Shown piece by piece: positions 5,515-48,180 of a DNA stretch of 64,000 nucleotides. Below the pieces are notes generated by a model, which had not been told where the DNA came from, did no database searches, and saw nothing but the letters and a program-made list of their open reading frames with translations. Position 1 is the stretch's first letter; each line of letters starts with the position of its first letter. This DNA comes from Escherichia coli. Lineage in GTDB: Bacteria; Pseudomonadota; Gammaproteobacteria; Enterobacterales; Enterobacteriaceae. Position numbers and translations under genes: made by a program. The stretch lies in NCBI RefSeq assembly GCF_024298765.1, contig NZ_CP101210.1; one strand, given 5' to 3'.

Positions 5515-7206
5515 ATGTGGATTACGTCAGCAATGCTGAATCTGGATAAGCCTGGTGCCTGCGATCCCAGTGTGGAACGTCTGTTTGAAGGCTTTGCCTT
5601 CCTGATGGGACGTTTGCGTGAAAAGCTGGATGATGACCTGCCGGAGCTCACCGAAGGTCTGGTGAGTCTGCTGTGGCCGCACTATATGCGGACTATCCCG
5701 TCGCTGGCCATCGTTGAGTTCTCGCCTGACTGGCGTAGTCTGCGTCAGGCCGAAATACTGGCTGAAGGCTTTTCCGTTCTGTCCCGTCCTGTCGGGCCGC
5801 ATAAAACCGCCTGCCAGTACCGGGCGACCCGCGATGTGTTGCTACAACCGCTGCACCTTGCAGATGCCCGTCTCCATACTGAATCCGATGGCCGCTCTGC
5901 TATCCGTCTGCGCTTCGAATGCCCTGAAAAAGTGGACTGGAGTAAAGCCGGGATCGACAAAGTCGCCATTTTTCTTAACGCAGAGGCGCCGGTAAGTGCT
6001 GCGCTACATCTGGCAATGACCCGGCGTGTACATGCCATGTATGCGCGTCATGCCGGGACATATACCGGACGTCGTCAGTTTGACGGCTGGTGCAGACCCA
6101 TGGGCTTTGACGACAATGACTGCCTGTGGAAGAAAGCTGATACAGCCTTCAGTGGTTACCAGTTGCTGCTGGAGTATTTCAGCTTCCGTCCGAAGTTTAT
6201 GTTTGTTGAACTGCGCGGCCTCGACACCATTGGGCTCACTGCGGCCAGTACCTGGTTTGAAATCGACATTGTGCTCAGTGAAGCCTGGTCATCCGGTTTG
6301 CCTTTTGAGACAGAAAACTTCCGCCTGCACTGTGCGCCGGTTATCAATCTCTTTACCCTGGAAGCCGACCCGCTGATCCTTAACCCGCTGGATAACGAGT
6401 ACCTGCTCAGGCCGCTGCGTCTTCAGGATGGTCACACCGAAATTTACAGCGTCGATAACATTCACGGCTCGGTGAAGAACGGCAGACACCCTTATGTCCC
6501 GTTCACCAGCTTCCGGCACCGGGGCGGTATGATGCGCCACGATGCTCCTGAACGTTATTACCACACCCGTGTGAAACGGGGACCCTCCGGCCTGTATGAC
6601 ACATGGTTAGTTCTCGGGGGGCGTTCGTTCGAGCTGGAGCAGTTGTCCGATAAACCGGAGTCCCTCTCGATGCGAATCACCGCGACCAACGGGCAGCTTC
6701 CGCGCAGGGCGCTGGAAAGTACGCTCCTGGACAGGGTGGTCAAAACCGGCAAAGTCCCCGTCAGAGTCCTGAACCTGACCGCACCGACGATGCCACTGTA
6801 TCCCCCGGCAAATGACCGGTTTCACTGGCGGGTGATGAGTCACCTCGGATCAAACTTTCTCAGCATGATGGACAATCCGGAGGTGCTGCGGGGGACGCTG
6901 GCGCTCTATGACTGGACCGACGATGAAATGAACCGCCGCCGGCTTGAAGCCATCGTTGCTGTGAAGCACACCCTGATCCGCCGTTTTGAAAAGGGCTTTA
7001 TGCTCCGTGGCGTGGACATTGAGGTCACGCTGAATATGGATAATTTTGCCGGCGAGGGCGATGTGAATCTCTTCGGGGAGATGCTGCACCGTTTCTTTGC
7101 GCTCTATGCTGATGTTCACCTTTTCAACCAGCTCACACTGGTACTGCAACCCACAGGGAAACGACTGAGATGGAAAGAGAATCACAGCCAGCACGTACCG
7201 GGCTGA
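5515..7206 (+). CDS. tssF: type VI secretion baseplate subunit TssF (ImpG/VasA family), apparently lacking ~25-30 N-terminal residues
   Basis: Motif ERLFEGFAFLMGRLREKLDDDLPELTEGLVSLLWPHYMRTIPSLAIVEF is the conserved TssF N-proximal signature but sits at residue ~17; in-frame stop just upstream of 5515. Confidence 0.75.
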   Translation: MWITSAMLNLDKPGACDPSVERLFEGFAFLMGRLREKLDDDLPELTEGLVSLLWPHYMRTIPSLAIVEFSPDWRSLRQAEILAEGFSVLSRPVGPHKTACQYRATRDVLLQPLHLADARLHTESDGRSAIRLRFECPEKVDWSKAGIDKVAIFLNAEAPVSAALHLAMTRRVHAMYARHAGTYTGRRQFDGWCRPMGFDDNDCLWKKADTAFSGYQLLLEYFSFRPKFMFVELRGLDTIGLTAASTWFEIDIVLSEAWSSGLPFETENFRLHCAPVINLFTLEADPLILNPLDNEYLLRPLRLQDGHTEIYSVDNIHGSVKNGRHPYVPFTSFRHRGGMMRHDAPERYYHTRVKRGPSGLYDTWLVLGGRSFELEQLSDKPESLSMRITATNGQLPRRALESTLLDRVVKTGKVPVRVLNLTAPTMPLYPPANDRFHWRVMSHLGSNFLSMMDNPEVLRGTLALYDWTDDEMNRRRLEAIVAVKHTLIRRFEKGFMLRGVDIEVTLNMDNFAGEGDVNLFGEMLHRFFALYADVHLFNQLTLVLQPTGKRLRWKENHSQHVPG

Positions 7207-8015
7207 CGCAGGCCCTGGCCCTTAACAACGATATCTGGCGGGCCAGTTTTTATCGTTTCTGCCAGCTGCTGGAGCTGGAAAATCCGGACGGGCCAAAACT
7301 GGGCACGACCAGCCATCCGGGCGATGACCCGGTGCGATTCAGGCCCTGGCCCGGGATGGGATTCCCGGTCAGCACCCTGAAAGCGGTGGAGATCGACGAA
7401 GACCGTCCGACATTACCCCCAACGATCCGCACGACATTTCTCGGAATGTATGGGGTGGACTCACCTCTGCCGACGTCCTGGCTGGATGATATTGCGCAGC
7501 GCCGTGAAGGACATGAGGCGCTCACCTCATTTCTGGATATTTTCAGCCACCGCATCACCACCCAGTACTACCGGATCTGGCGAAAATATGCGTATCCGGC
7601 CACTTTCGAGGAGGGGGGGCGCGATGCCACATCGCAGTGTCTGCTGGGACTGGTCGGACTCGGTATACCCGGCACCGCTGAACAGGTGGCAACGCCGGTT
7701 TCCCGTTTCCTGGCCTTACTGGGTGCCATGCGATTACCCACCCGCAATGCTGAAGGCATCCGGGCTCTGGTGAGTCTGCTGGCACCGGATACCCGCGCAC
7801 TTATCACCGAACCCGATCCGGTTAAGGTCCATATCGATAACCGCAGTGGGCTGGGTGCCGGAAACCGCATCCGTCTTTCGCAGCGGGCCACGCTGGGTAA
7901 AACGGCAGGGGAAGCATGCAGCCGGCTCCTGATGACACTGGAAACAGCGGATCCGGACGAGGCGGAAGGCTGGTTGCCCACAGATAACCGGAGCAGGATT
8001 TACCGCCTTTCTTAG
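7170..8015 (+). pseudogene. tssG: type VI secretion baseplate subunit TssG (ImpH family), 3'-truncated at IS66 junction near 7970
   Basis: Overlaps tssF stop as in T6SS clusters; 281 codons versus ~330-350 expected; last ~15 codons are IS66-derived sequence read out of frame. Confidence 0.65.
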
Positions 8016-10650: not shown

Positions 10651-11070
10651 ATGGAATTGCAGGACTGGCGAAAAGAACCTCGTAAAAAGTATTCGAATGA
10701 ATTCAAACTTCGTATGGTTGAACTGGCATCACAACCCGGTGCTTGTGTGGTCCAGATTGCACGAGAAAATGGCGTCAATGATAATGTTATATTCAAATGG
10801 CTCAGACTCTGGCAAAACGAAGGGTGTATATCGCAGCGTCTTCCGGTGACAACCACTTCTGACGCAGGCGTTGAATTATTACCTGTAGAGATAACGCCTG
10901 ATGAGCCGAAAGAACCGGTGGCTGCTCTTACTCCGTCTTTATCCACCCAGACTACTGTCAGTGCCAGCTCCTGCAAGGTGGAGTTCCGTCACGGTAACAT
11001 GACGCTGGAAAATCCTTCACCAGAGCTGCTCACTGTGTTGATCCGTGAACTGACCGGGAGGGGACGATGA
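10651..11070 (+). CDS. tnpA: IS66-family TnpA
   Basis: 139-aa ORF MELQDWRKEPRKKYSNEFKLRMVELAS...; overlaps tnpB start (ATGA). Confidence 0.7.
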   Translation: MELQDWRKEPRKKYSNEFKLRMVELASQPGACVVQIARENGVNDNVIFKWLRLWQNEGCISQRLPVTTTSDAGVELLPVEITPDEPKEPVAALTPSLSTQTTVSASSCKVEFRHGNMTLENPSPELLTVLIRELTGRGR

Positions 11071-11417
11071 TCTCACTCCCGTCAGGCACCCGCATCTGGC
11101 TCGTTGCCGGCGTTACCGATATGCGTAAATCCTTCAACGGACTGGGAGAACAGGTACAGCATGTGCTGAATGATAATCCCTTCTCCGGTCACCTGTTCAT
11201 CTTCCGTGGCCGACGGGGTGACACGATTAAAATCCTGTGGGCTGATGCTGATGGTCTGTGCCTGTTCACCAAACGCCTGGAGGAAGGCCAGTTTATCTGG
11301 CCTGCGGTGCGTGACGGCAAGATATCCATTACCCGCTCGCAACTGGCAATGCTCCTCGATAAGCTGGACTGGCGTCAGCCAAAAACATCCCGTCTTAACG
11401 CACTGACAATGTTGTAA
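11067..11417 (+). CDS. tnpB: IS66-family TnpB
   Basis: 116-aa ORF MISLPSGTRIWLVAGVTDMRKSFNGL..., canonical IS66 orf2. Confidence 0.75.
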   Translation: MISLPSGTRIWLVAGVTDMRKSFNGLGEQVQHVLNDNPFSGHLFIFRGRRGDTIKILWADADGLCLFTKRLEEGQFIWPAVRDGKISITRSQLAMLLDKLDWRQPKTSRLNALTML

Positions 11418-11447
11418 AAATGTCATGGCCGGATTATAAAAACGGTC

Positions 11448-12212
11448 ATGAGTCAGAAATACCTCATTCGGATCACTGAGCTGGAAAGGTTGCTCTCTGA
11501 GCAGGCTGAAGCCCTCCGTCAGAAAGACCAACAACTGAGTCTGGTTGAAGAGACGGAGGCCTTCCTGCGTTCTGCGCTGGCACGTGCCGAAGAAAAGATC
11601 GAAGAAGATGAGCGGGAAATAGAGCATCTGCGGGCCCAGGTGGAAAAACTGCGCCGGATGCTGTTCGGTACCCGTTCTGAAAAACTGCGTCGTGAAGTTG
11701 AACAGGCTGAAGCCCTGCTGAAACGACGCGAACAGAACAGCGATCGTTACAGCGGGCGTGAGGATGACCCGCAGGTTCCCCGCCAGTTGCGACAGTCGCG
11801 TCATCGTCGCCCGTTACCGGCGCATCTGCCCCGCGAAATAAACCGCCTGGAGCCAGAAGAAAGCTGTTGCCCGGAGTGTGGTGGTGAGCTGGATTATCTG
11901 GGGGAAGTCAGCGCAGAACAACTGGAACTGGTGAGCAGCGCCCTGAAAGTGATCCGCACAGAACGGGTAAAAAAAGCCTGTACAAAATGTGACTGCATCG
12001 TTGAAGCACCGGCACCGTCCCGTCCGATAGCGCGTGGTGTCGCGGGCCCGGGGTTACTTGCCCGCGTGTTAACGGGAAAATACTGCGAACACCTGCCACT
12101 GTATCGTCAGAGTGAAATCTTTGCCCGTCAGGGTGTCGAACTGAGCCGTGCGTTACTCTCCAACTGGGTTGACGAGCTCCTGCCATGGAACGTAGCACTC
12201 ACCAATAAATAA
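11448..12212 (+). pseudogene. tnpC: IS66-family transposase TnpC, N-terminal fragment (254 aa of ~520)
   Basis: Coiled-coil N-terminus, CPECGGELDYL zinc motif, HLPLYRQSEIFARQGVELSRALLSNWVDELLPW, then premature stop. Confidence 0.7.
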
Positions 12213-12437
12213 GTATCAATACGGCACTCCGTTAACGCTTACTGAAACGACGCCGGGGACCATCTTCTTTTGGGTAAAAAAGGCCGCGCCAGAATTCGAC
12301 ACGACCACTGCTATATGCGTATTATTCTGTTCCGGGAGATTGCCTCTCTTCTGGTTATTCAGCAATACAACGGACAAAAAGCACTGGCATAAATAACCCC
12401 TTGTTAAACGGAGAATAGTGATAATGTATTGACGCTA

Positions 12438-13685
12438 TTACTCATTTCTCATCTTCATCCTTCGGGTAAGCAGAGTCGCACAAATGAATCCCAGCAGACT
12501 AAATGCCACCATTACAGAAAAAACATAGTTATAGCCCTGTATGCCAGAAAAATTATCTAACAGCGAACCATAAAGCGTGTAAGCAAACATGGAAGGCATG
12601 TAACCAATAATGCACCCAAACGCCATTGCTGAACCAGCAAATTCTCTGGGGGTACCGATTTCATCCATTGGCGCAAAAAAAATTGCCCGTTGTGAAAAAA
12701 TGATTGCACCAAATCCAAGAGTTGCAGTCATTCCAAGATAAACATTCATTGAGTCGTGTGGTAGTTGAATAAAAAGTAGCATAGCGACTGCTGAAATAAG
12801 GAAAGTCCATTTCAGATAGATGACCGGAGAATGAGAAATTTTATCTGCGAGATAACCGCCAACTGGCCCGCCCACCATTTTTAGTCCGTACTGGTTAATA
12901 ATCCCGTAAGCACCCACGAGTGCAACGGGAAGGGCATAGATATCTTTCAGGAATGGTATGAAATATGTTAGCCCACAATATGCGGAGTACACAAAGAATA
13001 TACAAAATGAGGCCAGCCACAGATTTGGTGATTTAACGACATTCTTTATCCCCTTGAATATCTGTTTATTAACATCTTCGTCATTCTGTGGAATGGTCCT
13101 GTCGTCTGCATCCACAATAAAGTAGGTGATAATTCCAACAATAATGGTGATTAATGTGTAATAAACAAGACCAGCCTGCATGCCAGCTTTTCCTTCGCCA
13201 AACTGCACAAAGACGAATAAAGCGCCGGACGCAATTAATACATCCACGACTCCTCGTCCAGCTTCCAGAAAGCCGAACATACGTCCCTGTTCATCCCTGT
13301 TCCCCAACAGACGAACAGCTTTAAGTAGCACGGGCCAGTAGACCACTTCGCCAAAGAAAGCCATAGCACCAAAAGCTATAAGGTAACCAGAGAAGGGGGG
13401 TAATGTTGTGAGGTAAGCGCCGCACAGACCCACACCGATTAAACCTGCAGGAAGAAGTATTTTTTTGGAAAAGCGATCTGCTATATATAATGAACTAAAT
13501 AGTCCGATAGTCTGAACAGCAGCATATATTGTAAATCCAAAGCCAATCTGTGTATTAGTCAATCCCCAGTCAGCCTGCATAGGAACATAAAATACGTCCT
13601 TCATACTGGACAATTTGAAAATTGTCCCACCGCCAAGAATAAGGAAGCATAGCTTCATCCATTTATTCATCTGGTTATCCCCCAT
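12438..13685 (-). CDS. MFS transporter
   Basis: 415-aa polytopic hydrophobic ORF; start overlaps RidA stop (TAATG). Confidence 0.7.
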   Translation of the reverse strand: MGDNQMNKWMKLCFLILGGGTIFKLSSMKDVFYVPMQADWGLTNTQIGFGFTIYAAVQTIGLFSSLYIADRFSKKILLPAGLIGVGLCGAYLTTLPPFSGYLIAFGAMAFFGEVVYWPVLLKAVRLLGNRDEQGRMFGFLEAGRGVVDVLIASGALFVFVQFGEGKAGMQAGLVYYTLITIIVGIITYFIVDADDRTIPQNDEDVNKQIFKGIKNVVKSPNLWLASFCIFFVYSAYCGLTYFIPFLKDIYALPVALVGAYGIINQYGLKMVGGPVGGYLADKISHSPVIYLKWTFLISAVAMLLFIQLPHDSMNVYLGMTATLGFGAIIFSQRAIFFAPMDEIGTPREFAGSAMAFGCIIGYMPSMFAYTLYGSLLDNFSGIQGYNYVFSVMVAFSLLGFICATLLTRRMKMRNE

Positions 13686-14062
13686 TATTTGATAACCGCA
13701 ATGGCTTCAATTTCTATCAGCACGTCTTTCGGTAATCTGGCGACTTCAACACAGGACCTGGCCGGGTATTTGTCTGATGAGAAATATTCACTGTACAGAA
13801 GGTTAAATTGAGAAAAATTATCCATGTTACTGATAAAACAGGTTGTTTTTACGATGTTATCCATTCCGATTCCTGCAGATTCAATAATTGCCTTCAGATT
13901 ATCCATCGCTTGCCTGGTTTGCCTTTCTATAGTCTCGCCATTTACGGTTCCGTCTTCTGGTTTGAAAGGACAACATCCGGAAATGAACAATAAATTACCA
14001 GTTGATACTGCCTGTACATAGGGACCGATAGCTTTGGGGGCATGTTTAGTATCAATGATCAT
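13685..14062 (-). CDS. RidA/YjgF family reactive-intermediate deaminase
   Basis: 125-aa ORF MIIDTKHAPKAIGPYVQAV...SCVEVARLPKDVLIEIEAIA, typical RidA. Confidence 0.8.
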   Translation of the reverse strand: MIIDTKHAPKAIGPYVQAVSTGNLLFISGCCPFKPEDGTVNGETIERQTRQAMDNLKAIIESAGIGMDNIVKTTCFISNMDNFSQFNLLYSEYFSSDKYPARSCVEVARLPKDVLIEIEAIAVIK

Positions 14063-14083
14063 AAAAGTATCCTTTTAAATTTA

Positions 14084-15043
14084 TTAACAATATTTTTTTC
14101 TTAAATTCTTCAGAGTCTGAACAGAAACCTCAACACAACGATTTTGGGCTGCCATTAGTTCCTGTAATACAGAGTCAGATATTTTGGCAGGGTAGTAATA
14201 ATCAAGTGGCTTTATTTTCAGGTGTTCAAATGGTGCCTCTTTTACGGAGAATGCCCCTTCCAGAGAATATACGCCGCCAGTACCCTTTGGACGGGCAAAA
14301 GGTGAGGCATATGGGAAACATGTTTCGATGTTTATTCTGGTTAAAGAGGACTCTTTAACCAGAGTTTTAAAGCAGGTATCAATATCAATGCTTCCTTCTC
14401 CGACAGGAACACCACAGACAACCAGGTCTTCGCCGTTGCGTGTGACAATATGATCCTTGAAATGCGTGCTGTAAGCATAAGGAGCCAGTTTACGAACTGT
14501 TTCTACTGGTTCTTCCCATGCCATCATTCCATTACCTATATCACAGTGTGCTCCCACCCACTCAGAATTAACAGATTTGATAACTTCGATTATCTCGTCG
14601 GCAGTTTCATCTTCATGGTTTTCTATTGCCAGTTTAATTTTCTTTCTACTGAGTAAGGATGTCAGTGATTTTAACTGTTCTACTATTTCCGGATATTTCA
14701 GAGGGTTATATTCTCCTCTCCTGAACATATAAGTTCGGATAACTTCTGCTCCAAGTGCAGATGCAATTTCCACTGCTCTGGTGATAGCTTCACAGGAAGT
14801 GAATCGGGTATCTATCTCACAATAAAGACCATGAGAATCAATGGATTTTCTGACTTTTGACAGATATTCAGGAGATATACTGTTCAGGACACCAAATTCC
14901 GGATGCAGACCAACATCCGGAATGATATTAATTTCGACCCCATCCAGCCCCAGTTCACTGGTTTTATCAATGAAGTCGAAAATATCCATCATTCCCTGCT
15001 GAAAGAACAGATGATATGACTCAGTCTCAAGGCCTAGTTTCAT
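14084..15043 (-). CDS. sugar phosphate isomerase/epimerase (xylose isomerase-like TIM barrel)
   Basis: Start chosen at MKLGLETESYHL with GGAGG 7 nt upstream; family assigned from overall resemblance to sugar-phosphate isomerases, not verified. Confidence 0.6.
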   Translation of the reverse strand: MKLGLETESYHLFFQQGMMDIFDFIDKTSELGLDGVEINIIPDVGLHPEFGVLNSISPEYLSKVRKSIDSHGLYCEIDTRFTSCEAITRAVEIASALGAEVIRTYMFRRGEYNPLKYPEIVEQLKSLTSLLSRKKIKLAIENHEDETADEIIEVIKSVNSEWVGAHCDIGNGMMAWEEPVETVRKLAPYAYSTHFKDHIVTRNGEDLVVCGVPVGEGSIDIDTCFKTLVKESSLTRINIETCFPYASPFARPKGTGGVYSLEGAFSVKEAPFEHLKIKPLDYYYPAKISDSVLQELMAAQNRCVEVSVQTLKNLRKKYC

Positions 15044-15228
15044 GGCGAACCTCCATAGTATTTGAGACTGATTGTAGTTTTTTATACATTTGTAAAATGT
15101 GATCAAAGTAGAATAATTTCTCACTTAGTGAATAAATTTACTACCTGGTGTTATTTTGAGCCACTTTGGTGGACTCTGTTCTGCATCTGGTATAGCATTC
15201 AGATGTACTTTGTTCATGAGGTTATTAT

Positions 15229-15891
15229 ATGAAATCTATTGTTAATCATGAGTTTACTGAGGATGACAGGCAGCTTTTGCTCTCATATATTCCATTCATC
15301 GACAGTCTTGGTCAGTTCTTGGGTGAGTATTGCGAGATCGTCCTGCATAGTTTTGAGGACTTGCATCATTCCGTTATTCATATCGTTAACGGGCATGTGA
15401 CGGGGAGAGAGAAGGGGGCACCTGTAACAAATATAGCACTGGAAAAACTGGCAGAATTTAACTCAACAAACGATATGTGGGATGTCTATTTCAACCATAA
15501 AGGCGTTCGCCCTTTTAAATCATCGTCATCACTTATTCTGAATAAAAATAAAGAACCAGTAGGTATGATATGTATGAACTTTGCTCTGGATATGCCTCTT
15601 AATGCATTTATTGAAAACTTTGCAAAATCGTCAAACTGTAAAAACGAAAATTTCACTCAGGATATCAATAATCTTGTGCTTAGTCACCTTGAACCTGTTA
15701 AAAATATGGTTTACTCCAATAAGAATATACCAAGTAAAAACAAGAACTTTGAAATAGTAAAAGAACTTAATTCTATTGGGTTGTTTAAGTTCCCGGTTAC
15801 AACAAAAATTGTTTCATCGGTTCTTGGTATCAGTGCTAACACTATTTATAAACATCTCAGGGTATTAAATAATAAGGGGAAGGAGAATTAA
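15229..15891 (+). CDS. YheO-like transcriptional regulator (PAS-like N-domain plus C-terminal HTH)
   Basis: Motif CEIVLHSFEDLHHSVIHIVNGHVTGREKGAPVTNIALEKL matches YheO family; divergent from the isomerase operon. Confidence 0.7.
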   Translation: MKSIVNHEFTEDDRQLLLSYIPFIDSLGQFLGEYCEIVLHSFEDLHHSVIHIVNGHVTGREKGAPVTNIALEKLAEFNSTNDMWDVYFNHKGVRPFKSSSSLILNKNKEPVGMICMNFALDMPLNAFIENFAKSSNCKNENFTQDINNLVLSHLEPVKNMVYSNKNIPSKNKNFEIVKELNSIGLFKFPVTTKIVSSVLGISANTIYKHLRVLNNKGKEN

Positions 15892-16009
15892 GGTGTCTGT
15901 ATTCTGAACTTATAAGTAAGTTGTTTGTCTGAAGCGTATTGATATTTATTTTTCGGTTAGAGCAACTTTCTAGGGAAACAGATCGCGTATCCAGTTTGCC
16001 TGTCATTCC

Positions 16010-16290
16010 TAGATATGTTCAATGACGTAACGCAGCCATTTTTCTGGAGCCATATTGTTCAGACGGCATGTACCAATCCGCAGGTACAGCATCGCCGCAT
16101 CCTCAAGTAATGCCGGTAATTTGGGGCGTAATTCTGTTGCGCTTTTACTGAACACAATGCCGTATTCAGTAAGAAGTCCAAGAACATGATCTATCAGTTG
16201 TGTCCTTCCATCGAGATCAACCGATGCATTTTCAAAAAAGCCTGGACGTTCTGTAGGTCCAGACTTTTTATTGGTACCAGTCGTATAGTT
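16010..16290 (-). pseudogene. IS66-family transposase C-terminal remnant (no start codon)
   Basis: Hand translation ...AMLYLRIGTCRLNNMAPEKWLRYVIEHI* fits IS66 TnpC C-terminal pattern (A.L..LI.TC.LN...P..WL..V). Confidence 0.35.
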
Positions 16291-23853: not shown

Positions 23854-24327
23854 TTATTCACTTTGTTCATGTTGATTGGGTTTTTCAATGAGGAAAGTTT
23901 CCAGGGTACAATCTCCATTAACCTGTTTCCGCAAAGCAAGTGGCATTTTACCGTTACCAGACCACGTCCTGGTTTCGCCGTTCTCATCCTCAAAGATATA
24001 TTTCGCTTTTCTCACACCGCCTTTGGGTTTTCGTTTGGTTTCCGTTGTCCCTGCAATAGCAGAAACTGGACCCTGCCATTCTTCCGGGTCAAGCCCCACA
24101 GAAACGATGTACTCAAATACCTGTTGACATTTAGTTTCCAGTTCCTTACGTTCAGCCGCTTTTCGTTCAGCATCTTCACGGCGTTCTTCAATAACAGTGT
24201 TGAGCTTTTCCTGCATGTCGAGTAATTGCTCAAAATCAAGTTCGCGTACATACGTGCGTAGTGAACGAATATTCGTCATTGTCCGACTGATGATGCTGTA
24301 TTCTTCTTCTTTAGTCAGTTTGCACAT
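23854..24327 (-). CDS. H-NS family nucleoid-associated protein (island-borne paralog)
   Basis: NIRSLRTYVREL oligomerisation N-terminus and C-terminal DNA-binding motif AKYIFEDENGETRTWSGNGKMPLALRK; GAGG RBS upstream of ATG. Confidence 0.8.
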   Translation of the reverse strand: MCKLTKEEEYSIISRTMTNIRSLRTYVRELDFEQLLDMQEKLNTVIEERREDAERKAAERKELETKCQQVFEYIVSVGLDPEEWQGPVSAIAGTTETKRKPKGGVRKAKYIFEDENGETRTWSGNGKMPLALRKQVNGDCTLETFLIEKPNQHEQSE

Positions 24328-34886: not shown

Positions 34887-36560
34887 ATGAATTCACCTGT
34901 CGCGGCATGTTCAGCGACCAGCGCCGGACAGAAATATCGCTTTTTCTCAATTATTATGAAAATTAATCTTCCGTTCATACACTGGTCACGGATTAGCAAT
35001 GATAAGCGCCTCGTGTTATCAGTGGTTGTCTTTACCCTTTCTAATCTCCTTGTATCCTCAGGAGCGCATCTGATTTACCGGATATTATTCTTTATCCTGG
35101 CACTTCTTATTATTAAGGCAATGAAATCGATTACGTTGCGTTTGATTCTTGCCTTCCCGTTCACATTACTGACTGCTGCAGATATCAGTATCAGCCTGTA
35201 TTCATGGTGTACATTTGGCACAACATTTAATGATGGTTTTGCAATCAGTATCCTTCAGACAGATCCTGATGAAGTAATAAGAATGTTCAGGATGTATGTT
35301 GTTTATGTTATCGCATTTATTATCCTCTTTTTATTGTTCTTCTGTTCAGCAATAAATAAAACGTCCTCATTGCCATCGGAAAAGGTCACGGTAATTACAT
35401 TTTTATTGTTAATTACAGTAACGTTATATTCTTCCTTCCAGTTTGCGTTGAAGAAACAGTATCAAATAAATGAAGTTGATCCTTACATAGTCGCTTCCCG
35501 GTTTGCCACATATACCCCTTTCTTTAATCTGAACTATTTTGCACTGGCCGCAAAGGAGCATCAGAGATTAATGACGATTGCTGATACCATACCTCACTAC
35601 GATCTGGTGATTACGGATAACAACACTGACGTATTTGTTCTGGTGATTGGTGAATCTGCAAGGACTGATAACATGTCCATTTACGGGTATTCGCGCCCTA
35701 CCACACCAGAGCTTCAGAAACAGAAATCACGACTGAAACTGTTCACTCAGGCAATCAGTGGCGCACCTTACACCGCGCTGGCTGTTCCACTGGCGTTATC
35801 TGCCGATAGTGTACTGCATCATGATATCCGTAATTACCCTGATAACATTATCAACATGGCGAATCAGGCGGGGTTCGATACCTGGTGGCTCAGTGCGCAG
35901 TCCGCTTTCCGACAGAACGGAACGGCTGTGGCCAGTATCGCCATGCGGGCCAGAAACAGAATTTATGTCAGAGGCTATGATGAGTTACTGCTCCCACACC
36001 TGGCTGAAGCACTGAACAGTAATCCGGGGAGCAGGAAACTGATTGTTCTGCATCTGACGGGCAGCCATGAACCGGTTTGCAGTAACTGGCCCAGAGATAA
36101 AGCCGTGTTTAAACCGCTGGATACAGAAGAAGTCTGTTACGATAATTCCATTCATTATACCGACAGTTTGTTGGGACAGGTTTTCACCATGCTGGAAACG
36201 CGTCAGGCATCCGTCATGTATTTTTCAGATCACGGTCTGGAGTATGACCCGACAAAAGAACATGCCTATTTTCATGGTGGAATAAAACCCAGTCAGCAGG
36301 CTTATCATGTTCCGATGTTTATCTGGTACAGCCCGGCACTGGGAGAGCATGTCGATCGCCAGACGGTGAACAGCGTTTTTTCCACTGCGTATAATGATTA
36401 TCTGATTAATGCATGGATGGGCGTAACCAGACCGGCTCAACCGAAAACGCCGGAGGAGGTGATTACCCGCTGGCAGGGGAAATCCGTGGTTTTTGATGCC
36501 AGTCATAACGTGTTTGATTACAAAGTATTACGAAAGAACTTTAATGAACTCCAGGAATAA
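34887..36560 (+). CDS. phosphoethanolamine transferase, sulfatase superfamily (YhbX/EptA-like)
   Basis: N-terminal TM helices plus motifs VLVIGESARTDNMSIYGY, HLTGSHEP, YFSDHGL; close to remembered E. coli YhbX; start may be Met at 34956. Confidence 0.75.
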   Translation: MNSPVAACSATSAGQKYRFFSIIMKINLPFIHWSRISNDKRLVLSVVVFTLSNLLVSSGAHLIYRILFFILALLIIKAMKSITLRLILAFPFTLLTAADISISLYSWCTFGTTFNDGFAISILQTDPDEVIRMFRMYVVYVIAFIILFLLFFCSAINKTSSLPSEKVTVITFLLLITVTLYSSFQFALKKQYQINEVDPYIVASRFATYTPFFNLNYFALAAKEHQRLMTIADTIPHYDLVITDNNTDVFVLVIGESARTDNMSIYGYSRPTTPELQKQKSRLKLFTQAISGAPYTALAVPLALSADSVLHHDIRNYPDNIINMANQAGFDTWWLSAQSAFRQNGTAVASIAMRARNRIYVRGYDELLLPHLAEALNSNPGSRKLIVLHLTGSHEPVCSNWPRDKAVFKPLDTEEVCYDNSIHYTDSLLGQVFTMLETRQASVMYFSDHGLEYDPTKEHAYFHGGIKPSQQAYHVPMFIWYSPALGEHVDRQTVNSVFSTAYNDYLINAWMGVTRPAQPKTPEEVITRWQGKSVVFDASHNVFDYKVLRKNFNELQE

Positions 36561-48104: not shown

Positions 48105-48180
48105 TGGTGCCCGGACTCGGAATCGAACCAAGGACACGGGGATTTTCAATCCCCTGCTCTACCGACTGAGCTATCCGGGC
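48105..48180 (-). tRNA. pheV: tRNA-Phe (anticodon GAA)
   Basis: Reverse complement reads GCCCGGATAGCTCAGTCGGTAGAGCAGGGGATTGAAAATCCCCGTGTCCTTGGTTCGATTCCGAGTCCGGGCACCA; pheV rather than pheU inferred from neighbouring yqgA-speC. Confidence 0.95.

What the first reader, a model, noticed from the sequence alone, without database searches (positions are those of the whole stretch)
12438..15891. Compact YheO-regulated catabolic module: sugar-phosphate isomerase, RidA, MFS transporter
A three-gene operon with overlapping stop/start codons is divergent from a YheO-like regulator, embedded between IS remnants. RidA implies an enamine/imine-generating step, so the substrate may be an amino sugar or amino acid derivative. 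Substrate is unknown.
Basis: partly seen in the sequence, partly recalled or inferred. Interest (0 to 1): 0.4.

Follow-up and report, generated by a model that had tools for sequence, protein, structure and literature searches.

The report
Mobile four-gene amino-compound utilisation cassette
A compact, horizontally mobile E. coli cassette (regulator, metal-dependent TIM-barrel enzyme, RidA imine deaminase, YihN-like transporter) is real, intact and conserved across bacterial phyla, but what it breaks down is still unknown.

Summary
They are MFS 12438-13670(-), RidA 13685-14062(-), a xylose-isomerase-like TIM-barrel enzyme 14084-15043(-), and a divergent YheO-like regulator 15229-15891(+). IS66 remnants lie on both sides. 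The claimed stop/start overlaps are not real: the gaps are 21 and 14 nt.

The unit is a discrete 3.64-kb, 40% GC cassette (12276-15915). It occurs in about 1% of complete E. coli genomes, on 16 conjugative plasmids, and in Y. pestis, where its MFS gene is the 'yihN' PCR marker. All four genes are under purifying selection (dN/dS 0.02-0.10).

In 80 genomes from at least five phyla, the enzyme keeps the same MFS next to it in 58. RidA is adjacent in 33 and a YheO-like regulator in 28, a 40-100-fold local enrichment. The enzyme family is small, sharply delimited and uncharacterised. Its nearest solved structure is 23% identical, and it passes no curated equivalog model. The cassette is a paralogue of the orphan K-12 yihLMN genes.

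Best model (about 0.45): uptake of a small amino acid-like compound, metal-dependent elimination to a 2-enamine/imine acid, then RidA hydrolysis to a 2-oxo acid plus ammonium. The substrate remains unresolved. Weak transporter hints point to phosphoserine-, cysteate- or aminophosphonate-like zwitterions.

The parts
12276..15915 (.). The mobile cassette as a unit (3.64 kb, 39.8% GC). It is the block shared at about 95% identity with conjugative plasmids.
   Evidence: BLAST of the window against plasmid pEc98_1 gives one block, 12276-15915. On that plasmid it lies between nikB and trbC. GC values are and the composition profile.
12282..12306 (-). Terminator-like hairpin followed by a T-run, downstream of the MFS gene at the left edge of the cassette.
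   Evidence: Consensus scan. The hairpin lies inside the block shared with the plasmids.
12438..13670 (-). YihN-like MFS transporter, 410 aa. An alternative ATG at 13685 would give 415 aa.
   Evidence: PF07690, E 3.6e-30. It is 49% identical to E. coli K-12 YihN. Orthologues lie next to the TIM gene in 58 of 80 loci. It is below cut-off for the OPA, OFA and MCT models.
13685..14062 (-). Archetypal RidA (2-iminoacid/enamine deaminase), 125 aa.
   Evidence: PF01042, E 2.5e-42. TIGR00004 scores 163 bits against a cut-off of 106. Closest solved relatives are RidA, YabJ, YjgF and TdcF. The catalytic Arg (PARSCVEV), Cys and Glu are read from the sequence.
14084..15043 (-). Uncharacterised xylose-isomerase-like TIM-barrel metalloenzyme, 319 aa. 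It is the core enzyme of the module.
15044..15228 (.). Divergent intergenic control region between the operon and the regulator gene.
   Evidence: Sequence. There is no Rfam match.
15123..15149 (.). Candidate operator: two ACTNAGT palindromes 20 nt apart. In this window the upstream copy is degenerate (ACCAGGT) and the downstream copy is exact (ACTAAGT).
   Evidence: The motif is conserved in register in the Citrobacter (two species) and Proteus (two species) orthologous intergenic regions, and partly in Yersinia. Background frequency is 0.1 per kb. Function is inferred only.
15229..15891 (+). YheO/DauR-family transcription regulator (PAS_6 sensor plus HTH_22), 220 aa.
   Evidence: PF08348, E 5.8e-32, and PF13309, E 1.1e-12. 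A homologue lies next to the TIM gene in 28 of 80 loci, including Bacillota.
10651..12212 (+). Left flank: IS66-family remnant made of tnpA, tnpB and a 3'-truncated tnpC.
   Evidence: ORFs.
15909..16100 (.). Right flank: remnant of the 3' end of an IS66-family tnpC gene.
   Evidence: 82-84% identity to annotated IS66/ISCro1 tnpC genes in many E. coli records.

Best explanation
The cassette is a self-contained, horizontally mobile nutrient-utilisation module for a small amino acid-like compound, probably used as a nitrogen and/or carbon source.

Proposed sequence of events:
1. The YihN-like MFS protein takes the compound up.
2. The TIM-barrel enzyme uses a divalent metal held by Glu141/Asp168/His194/Glu240. 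It removes the proton next to the carboxylate and eliminates a beta-substituent (hydroxyl, phosphate or sulfonate type). No pyridoxal phosphate is involved.
3. This releases a 2-aminoacrylate-type enamine, which tautomerises to a 2-imino acid.
4. The cassette's own RidA hydrolyses the imine to a 2-oxo acid (for example pyruvate) plus ammonium, so the reactive enamine does not damage other enzymes.
5. The YheO-like PAS/HTH protein senses the substrate or its oxo acid and controls the divergent promoter through the paired ACTNAGT sites.

Shown: gene integrity, family assignments, the conserved metal tetrad, purifying selection, cross-phylum linkage of enzyme, MFS, RidA and YheO, and mobility.

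Inferred: direction of transport, the elimination chemistry, the identity of the leaving group and substrate, and regulation.
For: Linkage:
- In 80 loci from Pseudomonadota, Bacillota, Fusobacteriota, Spirochaetota, Campylobacterota and Actinomycetota, the orthologous MFS is adjacent in 58, RidA in 33 and YheO in 28.
- These occur in several different gene orders and are 41-108-fold enriched locally.

One enzyme is enough:
- The conserved core is only MFS plus TIM. No other catabolic enzyme recurs. The product must therefore enter central metabolism directly.

RidA:
- It is archetypal and keeps the carboxylate-binding Arg (sequence). This indicates a 2-imino carboxylate intermediate.

Amino acid character of the substrate:
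- An AgcS Na+/alanine-family carrier joins the module in 15 loci of amino acid-fermenting Clostridia and Fusobacteria.
- A distant YheO homologue sits beside RidA and a class I/II aminotransferase.
- From established knowledge, the YheO-family member DauR controls an imino-acid-forming D-arginine pathway.

Fold precedent:

Functionality:
- dN/dS is 0.02-0.10 for all four genes, and the cassette is carried intact on conjugative plasmids.
- The paralogue YihN behaves as an influx transporter (PMC8131027).

Hints to an oxyanion-bearing zwitterion:
- The alternative ABC systems next to the enzyme best match 2-aminoethylphosphonate-type components (PhnT2 379 bits, PhnV 89, PhnU2 80, PhnS-like substrate-binding protein 52).
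- The CUT1-type sugar/glycerophosphate ABC binding protein found next to TIM in Lysinibacillus best matches UgpB.
- The MFS best matches the organophosphate subfamily (69 bits).
- YihL, the regulator of the paralogous module, best matches PhnR (183 bits).
Against: - No experiment exists, and no characterised homologue does this chemistry on an amino acid. Every characterised structural neighbour acts on sugars or keto-sugars.
- RidA is absent from 47 of 80 loci, so the enzyme does not strictly need a dedicated RidA. A housekeeping RidA could substitute, but absence also fits a non-nitrogenous substrate.
- In many loci the regulator is DeoR-type and a HAD phosphatase is adjacent. These are hallmarks of sugar-phosphate pathways.
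- All transporter-family hints are below curated cut-offs.
- I could not inspect the active site in three dimensions.
Confidence: 0.45

Rival explanations
1. The enzyme is an ordinary isomerase, epimerase or dehydratase acting on a nitrogen-free sugar, sugar acid or small organophosph(on)ate, as the paralogous YihM-YihN pair may be. RidA and YheO are then an optional add-on. They might deal with general enamine stress or with a separate amino acid that shares the transporter, rather than with the enzyme's product.
For: - All characterised structural relatives act on sugars or keto-sugars.
- DeoR regulators occur in 37 of 80 loci, and HAD-IA or Cof phosphatases sit next to the enzyme.
- RidA is missing from 47 of 80 loci.
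- The K-12 paralogue yihLMN has no RidA.
- JGI labels some homologues '3-oxoisoapionate decarboxylase'.
Against: - RidA is 41-fold enriched beside the enzyme, in several gene orders and in three phyla. That is hard to explain without a shared intermediate.
- No kinase, aldolase or dehydrogenase recurs to complete a sugar pathway.
- The module is common in non-saccharolytic amino acid fermenters such as C. tetani and Fusobacterium, where it comes with an AgcS amino acid carrier.
- No apiose-pathway genes lie nearby.
Confidence: 0.3
2. The cassette is a resistance or detoxification unit. The enzyme inactivates a toxic amino acid or phosphonate antimetabolite, RidA removes the reactive product, and the MFS protein exports the compound. 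This would explain its carriage on plasmids.
For: - It is carried on 16 conjugative IncK/I-gamma plasmids and in islands that also hold resistance genes.
- It pairs an MFS protein with a modifying enzyme and a local regulator.
- The transporter families hinted at are those that carry phosphonate-like compounds.
Against: - The closest studied relative, YihN, behaves as an influx system.
- In other phyla the enzyme is paired with uptake-type ABC systems that have substrate-binding proteins, and with a Na+ symporter. These import.
- The module sits in chromosomes of many non-clinical soil and gut bacteria.
Confidence: 0.1
3. The adjacency is accidental, or the genes are decaying cargo between IS elements with no joint function.
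For: The cassette lies in a mosaic island full of IS remnants and pseudogenes.
Against: - All four genes are intact and under purifying selection.
- The same block moves as a unit.
- Synteny is conserved across phyla.
Confidence: 0.02

Closest known systems
E. coli K-12 yihL-yihM-yihN (b3872-b3874), orphan y-genes
   Same: The architecture is the same: a local regulator, a PF01261 TIM-barrel protein and an MFS transporter. The MFS proteins are 49% identical. The TIM proteins are homologous (23% identity, E 1e-14). YihN behaves as an influx transporter of unknown substrate.
   Different: yihLMN has a GntR/PhnR-like regulator in place of the YheO-like one, and it has no RidA. It is core chromosome, not mobile. 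The enzymes are too divergent to assume the same substrate.
tdc operon logic (TdcC transporter, TdcB PLP threonine/serine dehydratase, TdcF RidA paralogue); from established knowledge
   Same: A transporter, an enamine-generating amino acid dehydratase and a dedicated RidA paralogue sit in one operon. The cassette's RidA is a close relative of TdcF (E 8.8e-33).
   Different: The enzyme here is a metal-dependent TIM barrel, not a PLP fold-type II dehydratase. The regulator, transporter family and substrate all differ.
DauR/dauBAR of Pseudomonas aeruginosa (YheO-family regulator of D-arginine catabolism through 2-iminoarginine); from established knowledge
   Same: The regulator architecture (PAS_6 plus HTH_22) is associated with a pathway that passes through an imino acid.
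   Different: The imine there is made by an FAD dehydrogenase. That system has no TIM barrel, MFS or RidA. Homology to DauR itself was not tested here.
Dehydratases and eliminases of the xylose-isomerase-like fold (IolE, AsbF, UxuA mannonate dehydratase, 3-keto-glucoside lyases, C-glycoside deglycosidases)
   Different: Identity is only 11-22%. None acts on an amino acid or is linked to RidA. The family here has its own roughly 48 invariant residues.
Art22 (PDB 8z1i), an isomerase of aurantinin biosynthesis
   Different: It is a polyketide tailoring enzyme in a biosynthetic cluster. The context is unrelated and the similarity is too low to transfer function.
2-Aminoethylphosphonate uptake and catabolism (PhnR, PhnSTUV/AepXVW, PhnW, PhnX)
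   Same: The ABC systems that replace the MFS next to the enzyme in Paenibacillus, Peribacillus and Acidimicrobiaceae give their best matches to PhnT2, PhnU2, PhnV and PhnS. The adjacent HAD is weakly PhnX-like. YihL is PhnR-like. AepX and AepS share the PF13343 binding-protein family (PMC8316502).
   Different: Every score is below the curated cut-off. No PhnW, PhnX or PhnA orthologue is present, and aminoethylphosphonate has no carboxylate for RidA to bind.

Membership tests
Xylose isomerase-like TIM barrel (Pfam PF01261, AP_endonuc_2) | Pfam model matched above the gathering score | tested here: met
   78.6 bits against a cut-off of 31.1, residues 53-257.
Xylose isomerase-like TIM barrel (Pfam PF01261, AP_endonuc_2) | (beta/alpha)8 barrel fold | tested here: met
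Xylose isomerase-like TIM barrel (Pfam PF01261, AP_endonuc_2) | Conserved Glu-Asp-His-Glu metal-binding tetrad at the barrel strand ends | tested here: met
   E141 (ENHE), D168 (CDIGN), H194 (HFKDH) and E240 (NIE) are invariant in 79 sequences. They align with the corresponding motifs of UlaE and Art22. Metal binding itself was not tested.
L-ribulose-5-phosphate / L-xylulose-5-phosphate 3-epimerase (UlaE/SgbU; NCBIfam NF009688, NF009689, TIGR00542) | Score above the curated equivalog/subfamily cut-off | tested here: not met
   42.8 against 317, 34.1 against 200, and 29.9 against 272 bits. The 'sugar phosphate isomerase/epimerase' label is a family-level name only.
3-oxo-isoapionate decarboxylase (OiaC), the label JGI gives to some homologues | Genomic association with apiose/apionate pathway genes, and orthology to a characterised OiaC | tested here: inconclusive
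   No kinase, dehydrogenase or RuBisCO-like gene recurs in the 80 neighbourhoods. No OiaC sequence was available for direct comparison (one search found no usable source).
RidA subfamily of the Rid/YjgF/YER057c family (TIGR00004) | Score above the curated cut-off | tested here: met
   163.1 bits against a cut-off of 106.25. E is 1e-35 to 4e-39 to solved RidA/YjgF/YabJ proteins.
RidA subfamily of the Rid/YjgF/YER057c family (TIGR00004) | Catalytic and carboxylate-binding residues (E. coli RidA Tyr17, Ser30, Asn88, Arg105, Cys107, Glu120; from established knowledge) | tested here: met
   GPY(15), ISG(28), NMDNF, PAR(102)SC(104)VEV and EIE(117)AIA were read from the translation. The residue mapping rests on my recollection of the E. 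coli RidA sequence.
YheO/DauR-type regulators | N-terminal PAS_6 (PF08348) plus C-terminal HTH_22 (PF13309) | tested here: met
   110.4 bits against 27, and 48.3 bits against 29.6. No NCBIfam model matches, and there is no solved relative by sequence.
Organophosphate:Pi antiporter family of MFS (TIGR00881; GlpT/UhpT/PgtP) | Score above cut-off, and paired phosphate-binding arginines in TM1 and TM7 (from established knowledge) | tested here: not met
   69.3 bits against a cut-off of 407.75. The invariant basic residues are K19, K117 and R139; K264 and R328 are nearly invariant. None is an arginine pair in TM1/TM7. TM positions were assigned by eye.
Oxalate/formate antiporter and L-lactate MCT families of MFS | Score above the curated cut-off | tested here: not met
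   36.4 bits against 335, and 39 bits against 320.
YihN-like MFS transporters | Full-length homology to E. coli YihN and pairing with a PF01261 enzyme | tested here: met
   49% identity over 413 residues, E 2e-141. Both are adjacent to a PF01261 gene.
Phosphonatase-type 2-aminoethylphosphonate catabolic clusters | Presence of PhnW transaminase and PhnX (or PhnA/PhnY) together with a cognate transporter | tested here: not met
   No aminotransferase recurs. The HAD scores 55.9 bits against a cut-off of 218.9 for the PhnX-like model, and the transporter components are all below cut-off.

The most novel reading that the evidence does not exclude
The TIM-barrel protein may found a new class of enzyme: a PLP-independent, metal-dependent beta-eliminating 'ammonia-lyase' within the xylose-isomerase-like fold. 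It would release free 2-aminoacrylate-type enamines from a beta-substituted alpha-amino acid. Candidates are O-phosphoserine or O-phosphothreonine, cysteate, or a hydroxy-amino acid or 2-amino-aldonate. This would explain why it has recruited a dedicated RidA in three phyla. The cassette would then be a plasmid- and island-borne single-enzyme route from a host- or diet-derived compound to pyruvate, ammonium and possibly phosphate or sulfite. It would also give a first functional handle on the orphan K-12 yihLMN genes and on the Y. pestis 'yihN' marker locus.
Probability: 0.3. Interest if true: 0.7.

Novelty: new variant of a known kind. Interest (0 to 1): 0.45.

Why it matters
Every enamine source so far tied to RidA is a PLP, flavin or Fe-S enzyme. 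A metal-dependent TIM-barrel source would be new enzymology and would widen the known origins of 2-aminoacrylate stress.

The cassette is also practically visible:
- It moves between E. coli, Salmonella and Yersinia on IncK/I-gamma plasmids and tRNA-Phe islands.
- Its transporter gene is a routinely used Y. pestis chromosomal PCR signature.
- It is paralogous to three long-standing E. coli orphan genes.

Identifying the substrate would therefore explain a niche-adaptive trait of gut, poultry and plague strains and remove several genes from the orphan list. If the rival reading is right, it is simply one more unassigned sugar or acid utilisation operon.

Tried and rejected
- **Curated NCBIfam models**: nothing passed the cut-off for the enzyme, the MFS or the regulator.
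- **Nine full-text literature searches** found no paper on this module, on YihM/YihN function, or on a link between a TIM barrel and RidA.
- **Sulfur-compound idea.** It was prompted by two YeeE/YedE genes in C. tetani, CysK in Vagococcus salmoninarum and an FNT channel in Helicobacter. I rejected it as general evidence because none of these recurs in the 80 loci.
- **Rosetta-stone fusion.** The 652-aa homologue P0300 has only a low-complexity insertion.
- **Riboswitch or leader RNA in the control region.** There was no Rfam match at E <= 0.1.
- **Operator motif beyond Enterobacterales.** ACTNAGT pairs are absent upstream of yheO homologues in Pasteurellaceae and Bacillota, so the motif is clade-specific.
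- **Three exact-sequence context look-ups** returned nothing useful.
- **Phosphonate-pathway membership.** I considered it and did not adopt it, because PhnW and PhnX are absent and all scores are below cut-off.
- **The claim of translational coupling through overlapping codons** was rejected from the sequence itself.


Full report
**Observation**

The region holds four intact genes.
- On the minus strand: a 319-aa PF01261 'xylose isomerase-like TIM barrel' protein (14084-15043; the longest ORF reaches 15124), a 125-aa RidA (13685-14062) and a 410-aa MFS transporter (12438-13670).
- On the plus strand, across a 185-bp intergenic region: a 220-aa PAS_6+HTH_22 (YheO-like) regulator (15229-15891).

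Pfam assignments are all well above gathering scores. RefSeq annotation of identical DNA in other E. coli genomes gives the same four genes and the same starts.

- TIM to RidA is a 21-nt gap with an AAGGA ribosome-binding site.
- RidA and MFS overlap by one base only if the ATG at 13685 is used. The ATG at 13670 has a GGGGGA Shine-Dalgarno sequence 7 nt upstream. It is also the RefSeq start and matches the N-termini of YihN and the orthologues, which are separated from RidA by 12-13 nt.

The IS flanks are real. IS66 tnpA, tnpB and a truncated tnpC lie at 10651-12212. An 82-84% identical remnant of an IS66-family tnpC 3' end lies at 15909-16100.

**The unit and its mobility**

- The window is part of an E. 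coli genomic island inserted at tRNA-Phe (48105-48180).
- The four genes form a low-GC block, 39.8% against 50.7% to the left.
- The block occurs essentially complete in 59 of 5,426 complete E. coli genomes.
- A 95%-identical allele is carried on 16 conjugative plasmids.
- On IncI-gamma/K1 plasmid pEc98_1 the shared block is exactly window 12276-15915. It includes a terminator-like hairpin at 12282-12306 and is inserted between nikB and trbC.
- Between the chromosomal and plasmid alleles, dN/dS is 0.023 (MFS), 0.063 (RidA), 0.083 (TIM) and 0.097 (regulator). All four genes are therefore maintained by selection.

**The enzyme**

- The TIM-barrel protein passes no curated equivalog. The best match, L-ribulose-5-phosphate 3-epimerase, scores 43 bits against a 317-bit cut-off.
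- Its best PDB sequence match has E 1e-5, improving to 1.8e-11 for Art22 with a family profile.
- An AlphaFold2 model built on 34 homologues is very confident (pLDDT 96.3).
- The family is tight. E141, D168, H194 and E240 (the canonical metal tetrad) and about 45 further residues are invariant in 79 sequences.
- An exhaustive phmmer search of 1.84 billion cluster representatives finds only 25 at E <= 1e-30. The family is small and sharply delimited.

**Comparative context: the key evidence**

A scan of one genome per species returned 80 loci. They come from Enterobacterales, Pasteurellaceae, Vibrionaceae, Succinivibrionaceae, Helicobacter, Bacillales, Lactobacillales, Clostridia, Fusobacteria, Brachyspira and Acidimicrobiaceae. 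I called ORFs and clustered them. The results were:

| Partner next to the TIM gene | Loci (of 80) |
|---|---|
| Orthologous MFS | 58 |
| RidA | 33 |
| YheO-like regulator | 28 |
| DeoR regulator | 37 |
| AgcS Na+/alanine-family carrier | 15 |
| PotD/PhnS-type ABC system, usually with a HAD phosphatase directly upstream of the enzyme | about 17 |

- Gene order differs between clades: YheO|TIM-RidA-MFS in Enterobacterales, YheO|RidA-MFS-TIM in Bacillus and Paenibacillus, YheO|MFS-TIM-RidA in Vagococcus and Sporosarcina, and DeoR-AgcS-MFS-TIM in Clostridia and Fusobacteria. The linkage has therefore been kept through independent rearrangements.
- Within these loci, homologues of RidA, MFS and YheO are 41-, 47- and 108-fold denser within 3 kb of the enzyme than further out.
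- No second catabolic enzyme recurs. The minimal unit is transporter plus enzyme, which occurs alone in Brachyspira and Helicobacter.

**RidA and the regulator**

- The RidA is archetypal (TIGR00004, 163 bits against 106). It retains the residues that define 2-iminoacid deaminase activity, including the carboxylate-binding arginine (PARSCVEV; sequence, relatives). This argues that the intermediate is a 2-imino or enamine carboxylate and not an amino-sugar imine.
- The regulator has no characterised close relative.
- Two distant homologues were examined. One lies next to RidA and a class I/II aminotransferase. The other is divergent from a glycyl-radical enzyme.
- In Enterobacterales the intergenic region keeps two ACTNAGT palindromes exactly 20 nt apart. 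In the window these are at 15123-15149, with the upstream copy degenerate. This is a plausible operator but is untested, and it is not found in other clades.
- No riboswitch is detectable.

**Mechanism**

The model that best fits has five steps: uptake by the MFS, metal-assisted proton abstraction and beta-elimination by the TIM-barrel enzyme, release of a 2-aminoacrylate-type enamine, RidA-catalysed hydrolysis to a 2-oxo acid plus ammonium, and control by the YheO-like sensor.

- The elimination chemistry has precedent in this fold (IolE, AsbF, UxuA and the keto-glucoside lyases). It has no precedent on an amino acid.
- I put this model at about 0.45.
- The main rival (about 0.3) is that the enzyme handles a nitrogen-free sugar, acid or organophosphate and that RidA and YheO are accessory. 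It rests on the sugar-type structural relatives, the frequent DeoR and HAD neighbours, and the 47 loci without RidA.
- A detoxification/export reading (about 0.1) fits plasmid carriage. It conflicts with the import-type partners (ABC systems with binding proteins, a Na+ symporter) and with the influx behaviour reported for YihN (PMC8131027).

**Substrate**

The substrate is unresolved. Two weak lines of evidence pull in somewhat different directions.
- The AgcS carriers and the prevalence in amino acid fermenters suggest a small neutral amino acid of the serine, threonine or alanine type.
- The alternative transporters suggest an amino compound bearing a tetrahedral oxyanion. The ABC ATPase, permeases and binding protein give their best matches to the 2-aminoethylphosphonate systems (PhnT2 379, PhnV 89, PhnU2 80 and PhnS-like 52 bits). 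A second, CUT1-type (sugar/glycerophosphate-family) binding protein best matches UgpB. The MFS best matches the organophosphate subfamily. YihL, the regulator of the paralogous K-12 module, best matches PhnR (183 bits).

All of these scores are below curated cut-offs, and no PhnW or PhnX is present. An alpha-amino acid with a phosphate or sulfonate leaving group (O-phosphoserine or O-phosphothreonine, cysteate) would reconcile both lines and the RidA requirement. This is inference, not a result. Isolated sulfur-related neighbours did not recur.

**Relation to what is known**

- The cassette is a paralogue of the orphan K-12 genes yihL-yihM-yihN. YihN is 49% identical to the MFS. YihM is 23% identical to the enzyme (E 1e-14).
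- The published Y. pestis chromosomal PCR signature 'yihN' matches exactly inside the MFS gene of the orthologous four-gene module in Y. pestis (primer and probe from PMC3280232). That gene is 86% identical to the window protein.
- I found no paper that describes the module or assigns a function to any member.

**Verdict**

However, 'sugar-phosphate isomerase' and 'YheO-regulated' are labels or inferences, not findings.
- It is not an artefact and not already explained.
- It is an uncharacterised variant of a familiar kind of system (transporter, enzyme, RidA and regulator). It has an unusual enzyme partner, broad phylogenetic conservation and clear mobility.
- Interest is moderate (0.45). It would be higher if the PLP-independent enamine-forming chemistry were confirmed.

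Noticed in passing
L011 7386-7443 (Y. pestis NCTC5923; MFS ORF 6510-7745), orthologous to window 12438-13670: The published Y. pestis chromosomal PCR signature 'yihN' (primer yin_f and probe, PMC3280232) matches exactly inside the MFS gene of the same four-gene module in Y. pestis. The widely used plague marker is therefore this horizontally acquired cassette, not an orthologue of K-12 yihN.
   Followed up: yes
L091 4448-7513 (E. coli K-12 yihL, yihM, yihN): The core-genome orphan genes yihLMN form a paralogous regulator/TIM-barrel/MFS module. The MFS proteins are 49% identical and the enzymes 23%. Its GntR regulator YihL gives its best NCBIfam match to the phosphonate-utilisation regulator PhnR (183 bits, below the cut-off of 297).
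   Followed up: partly
window 26715-27590 (-), with insertion sequences at about 26040-30440: A chromosomal blaCTX-M-14 gene (291-aa ORF) sits in the same island. By identity with NZ_CP067342.1, it is flanked by ISEcp1, ISVsa5 and a truncated IS5-family element.
   Followed up: partly
window 48105-48180 (-) and leftwards: tRNA-Phe, followed by a tyrosine integrase, marks the island boundary. By colinearity with NZ_CP067342.1, the island also carries a raffinose-type cluster (alpha-galactosidase, MFS, GH32, porin), the scrKYABR sucrose regulon (16824 to about 23300), an H-NS paralogue (about 23854-24327) and a phosphoethanolamine transferase (about 34887-36560).
   Followed up: partly
window about 5527-7979: Truncated type VI secretion genes (tssF and tssG pseudogenes) lie just left of the IS66 copies, according to RefSeq annotation of identical DNA in strain 8GC.
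   Followed up: no
L032, L034, L053, L087 (Paenibacillus, Bacillus, Lysinibacillus, Peribacillus): A GerA-type spore germinant receptor operon (GerAA/AB/AC-like ORF clusters c40, c56 and c38) lies next to the TIM-barrel gene in four Bacillales loci from different genera. I identified it by reading the sequences, not with a domain search. It may be chance, or it may hint that the substrate is a germinant-like nutrient.
   Followed up: no
L095 95-2697 and L094 3785-7672: Distant YheO-like regulators (29-32% identical) sit next to RidA plus a class I/II aminotransferase in one metagenomic contig. In Erysipelothrix urinaevulpis one is divergent from a glycyl-radical enzyme and its activase. This suggests the regulator family often accompanies imine- or enamine-forming amino acid metabolism.
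   Followed up: partly
L005 11208-11435 (Aliivibrio salmonicida): The orthologous four-gene module in A. salmonicida is also followed by an IS66 TnpB fragment. The association with IS66-family elements therefore recurs outside E. coli.
   Followed up: no
L016, L017, L019, L022 (Pasteurellaceae of tortoises): In Pasteurella testudinis, Testudinibacter and Chelonobacter the module is inserted inside a myo-inositol catabolic cluster (IolA, IolB and IolG-like genes, a sugar ABC system and further PF01261 genes). It is unclear whether this is functional or merely positional.
   Followed up: no
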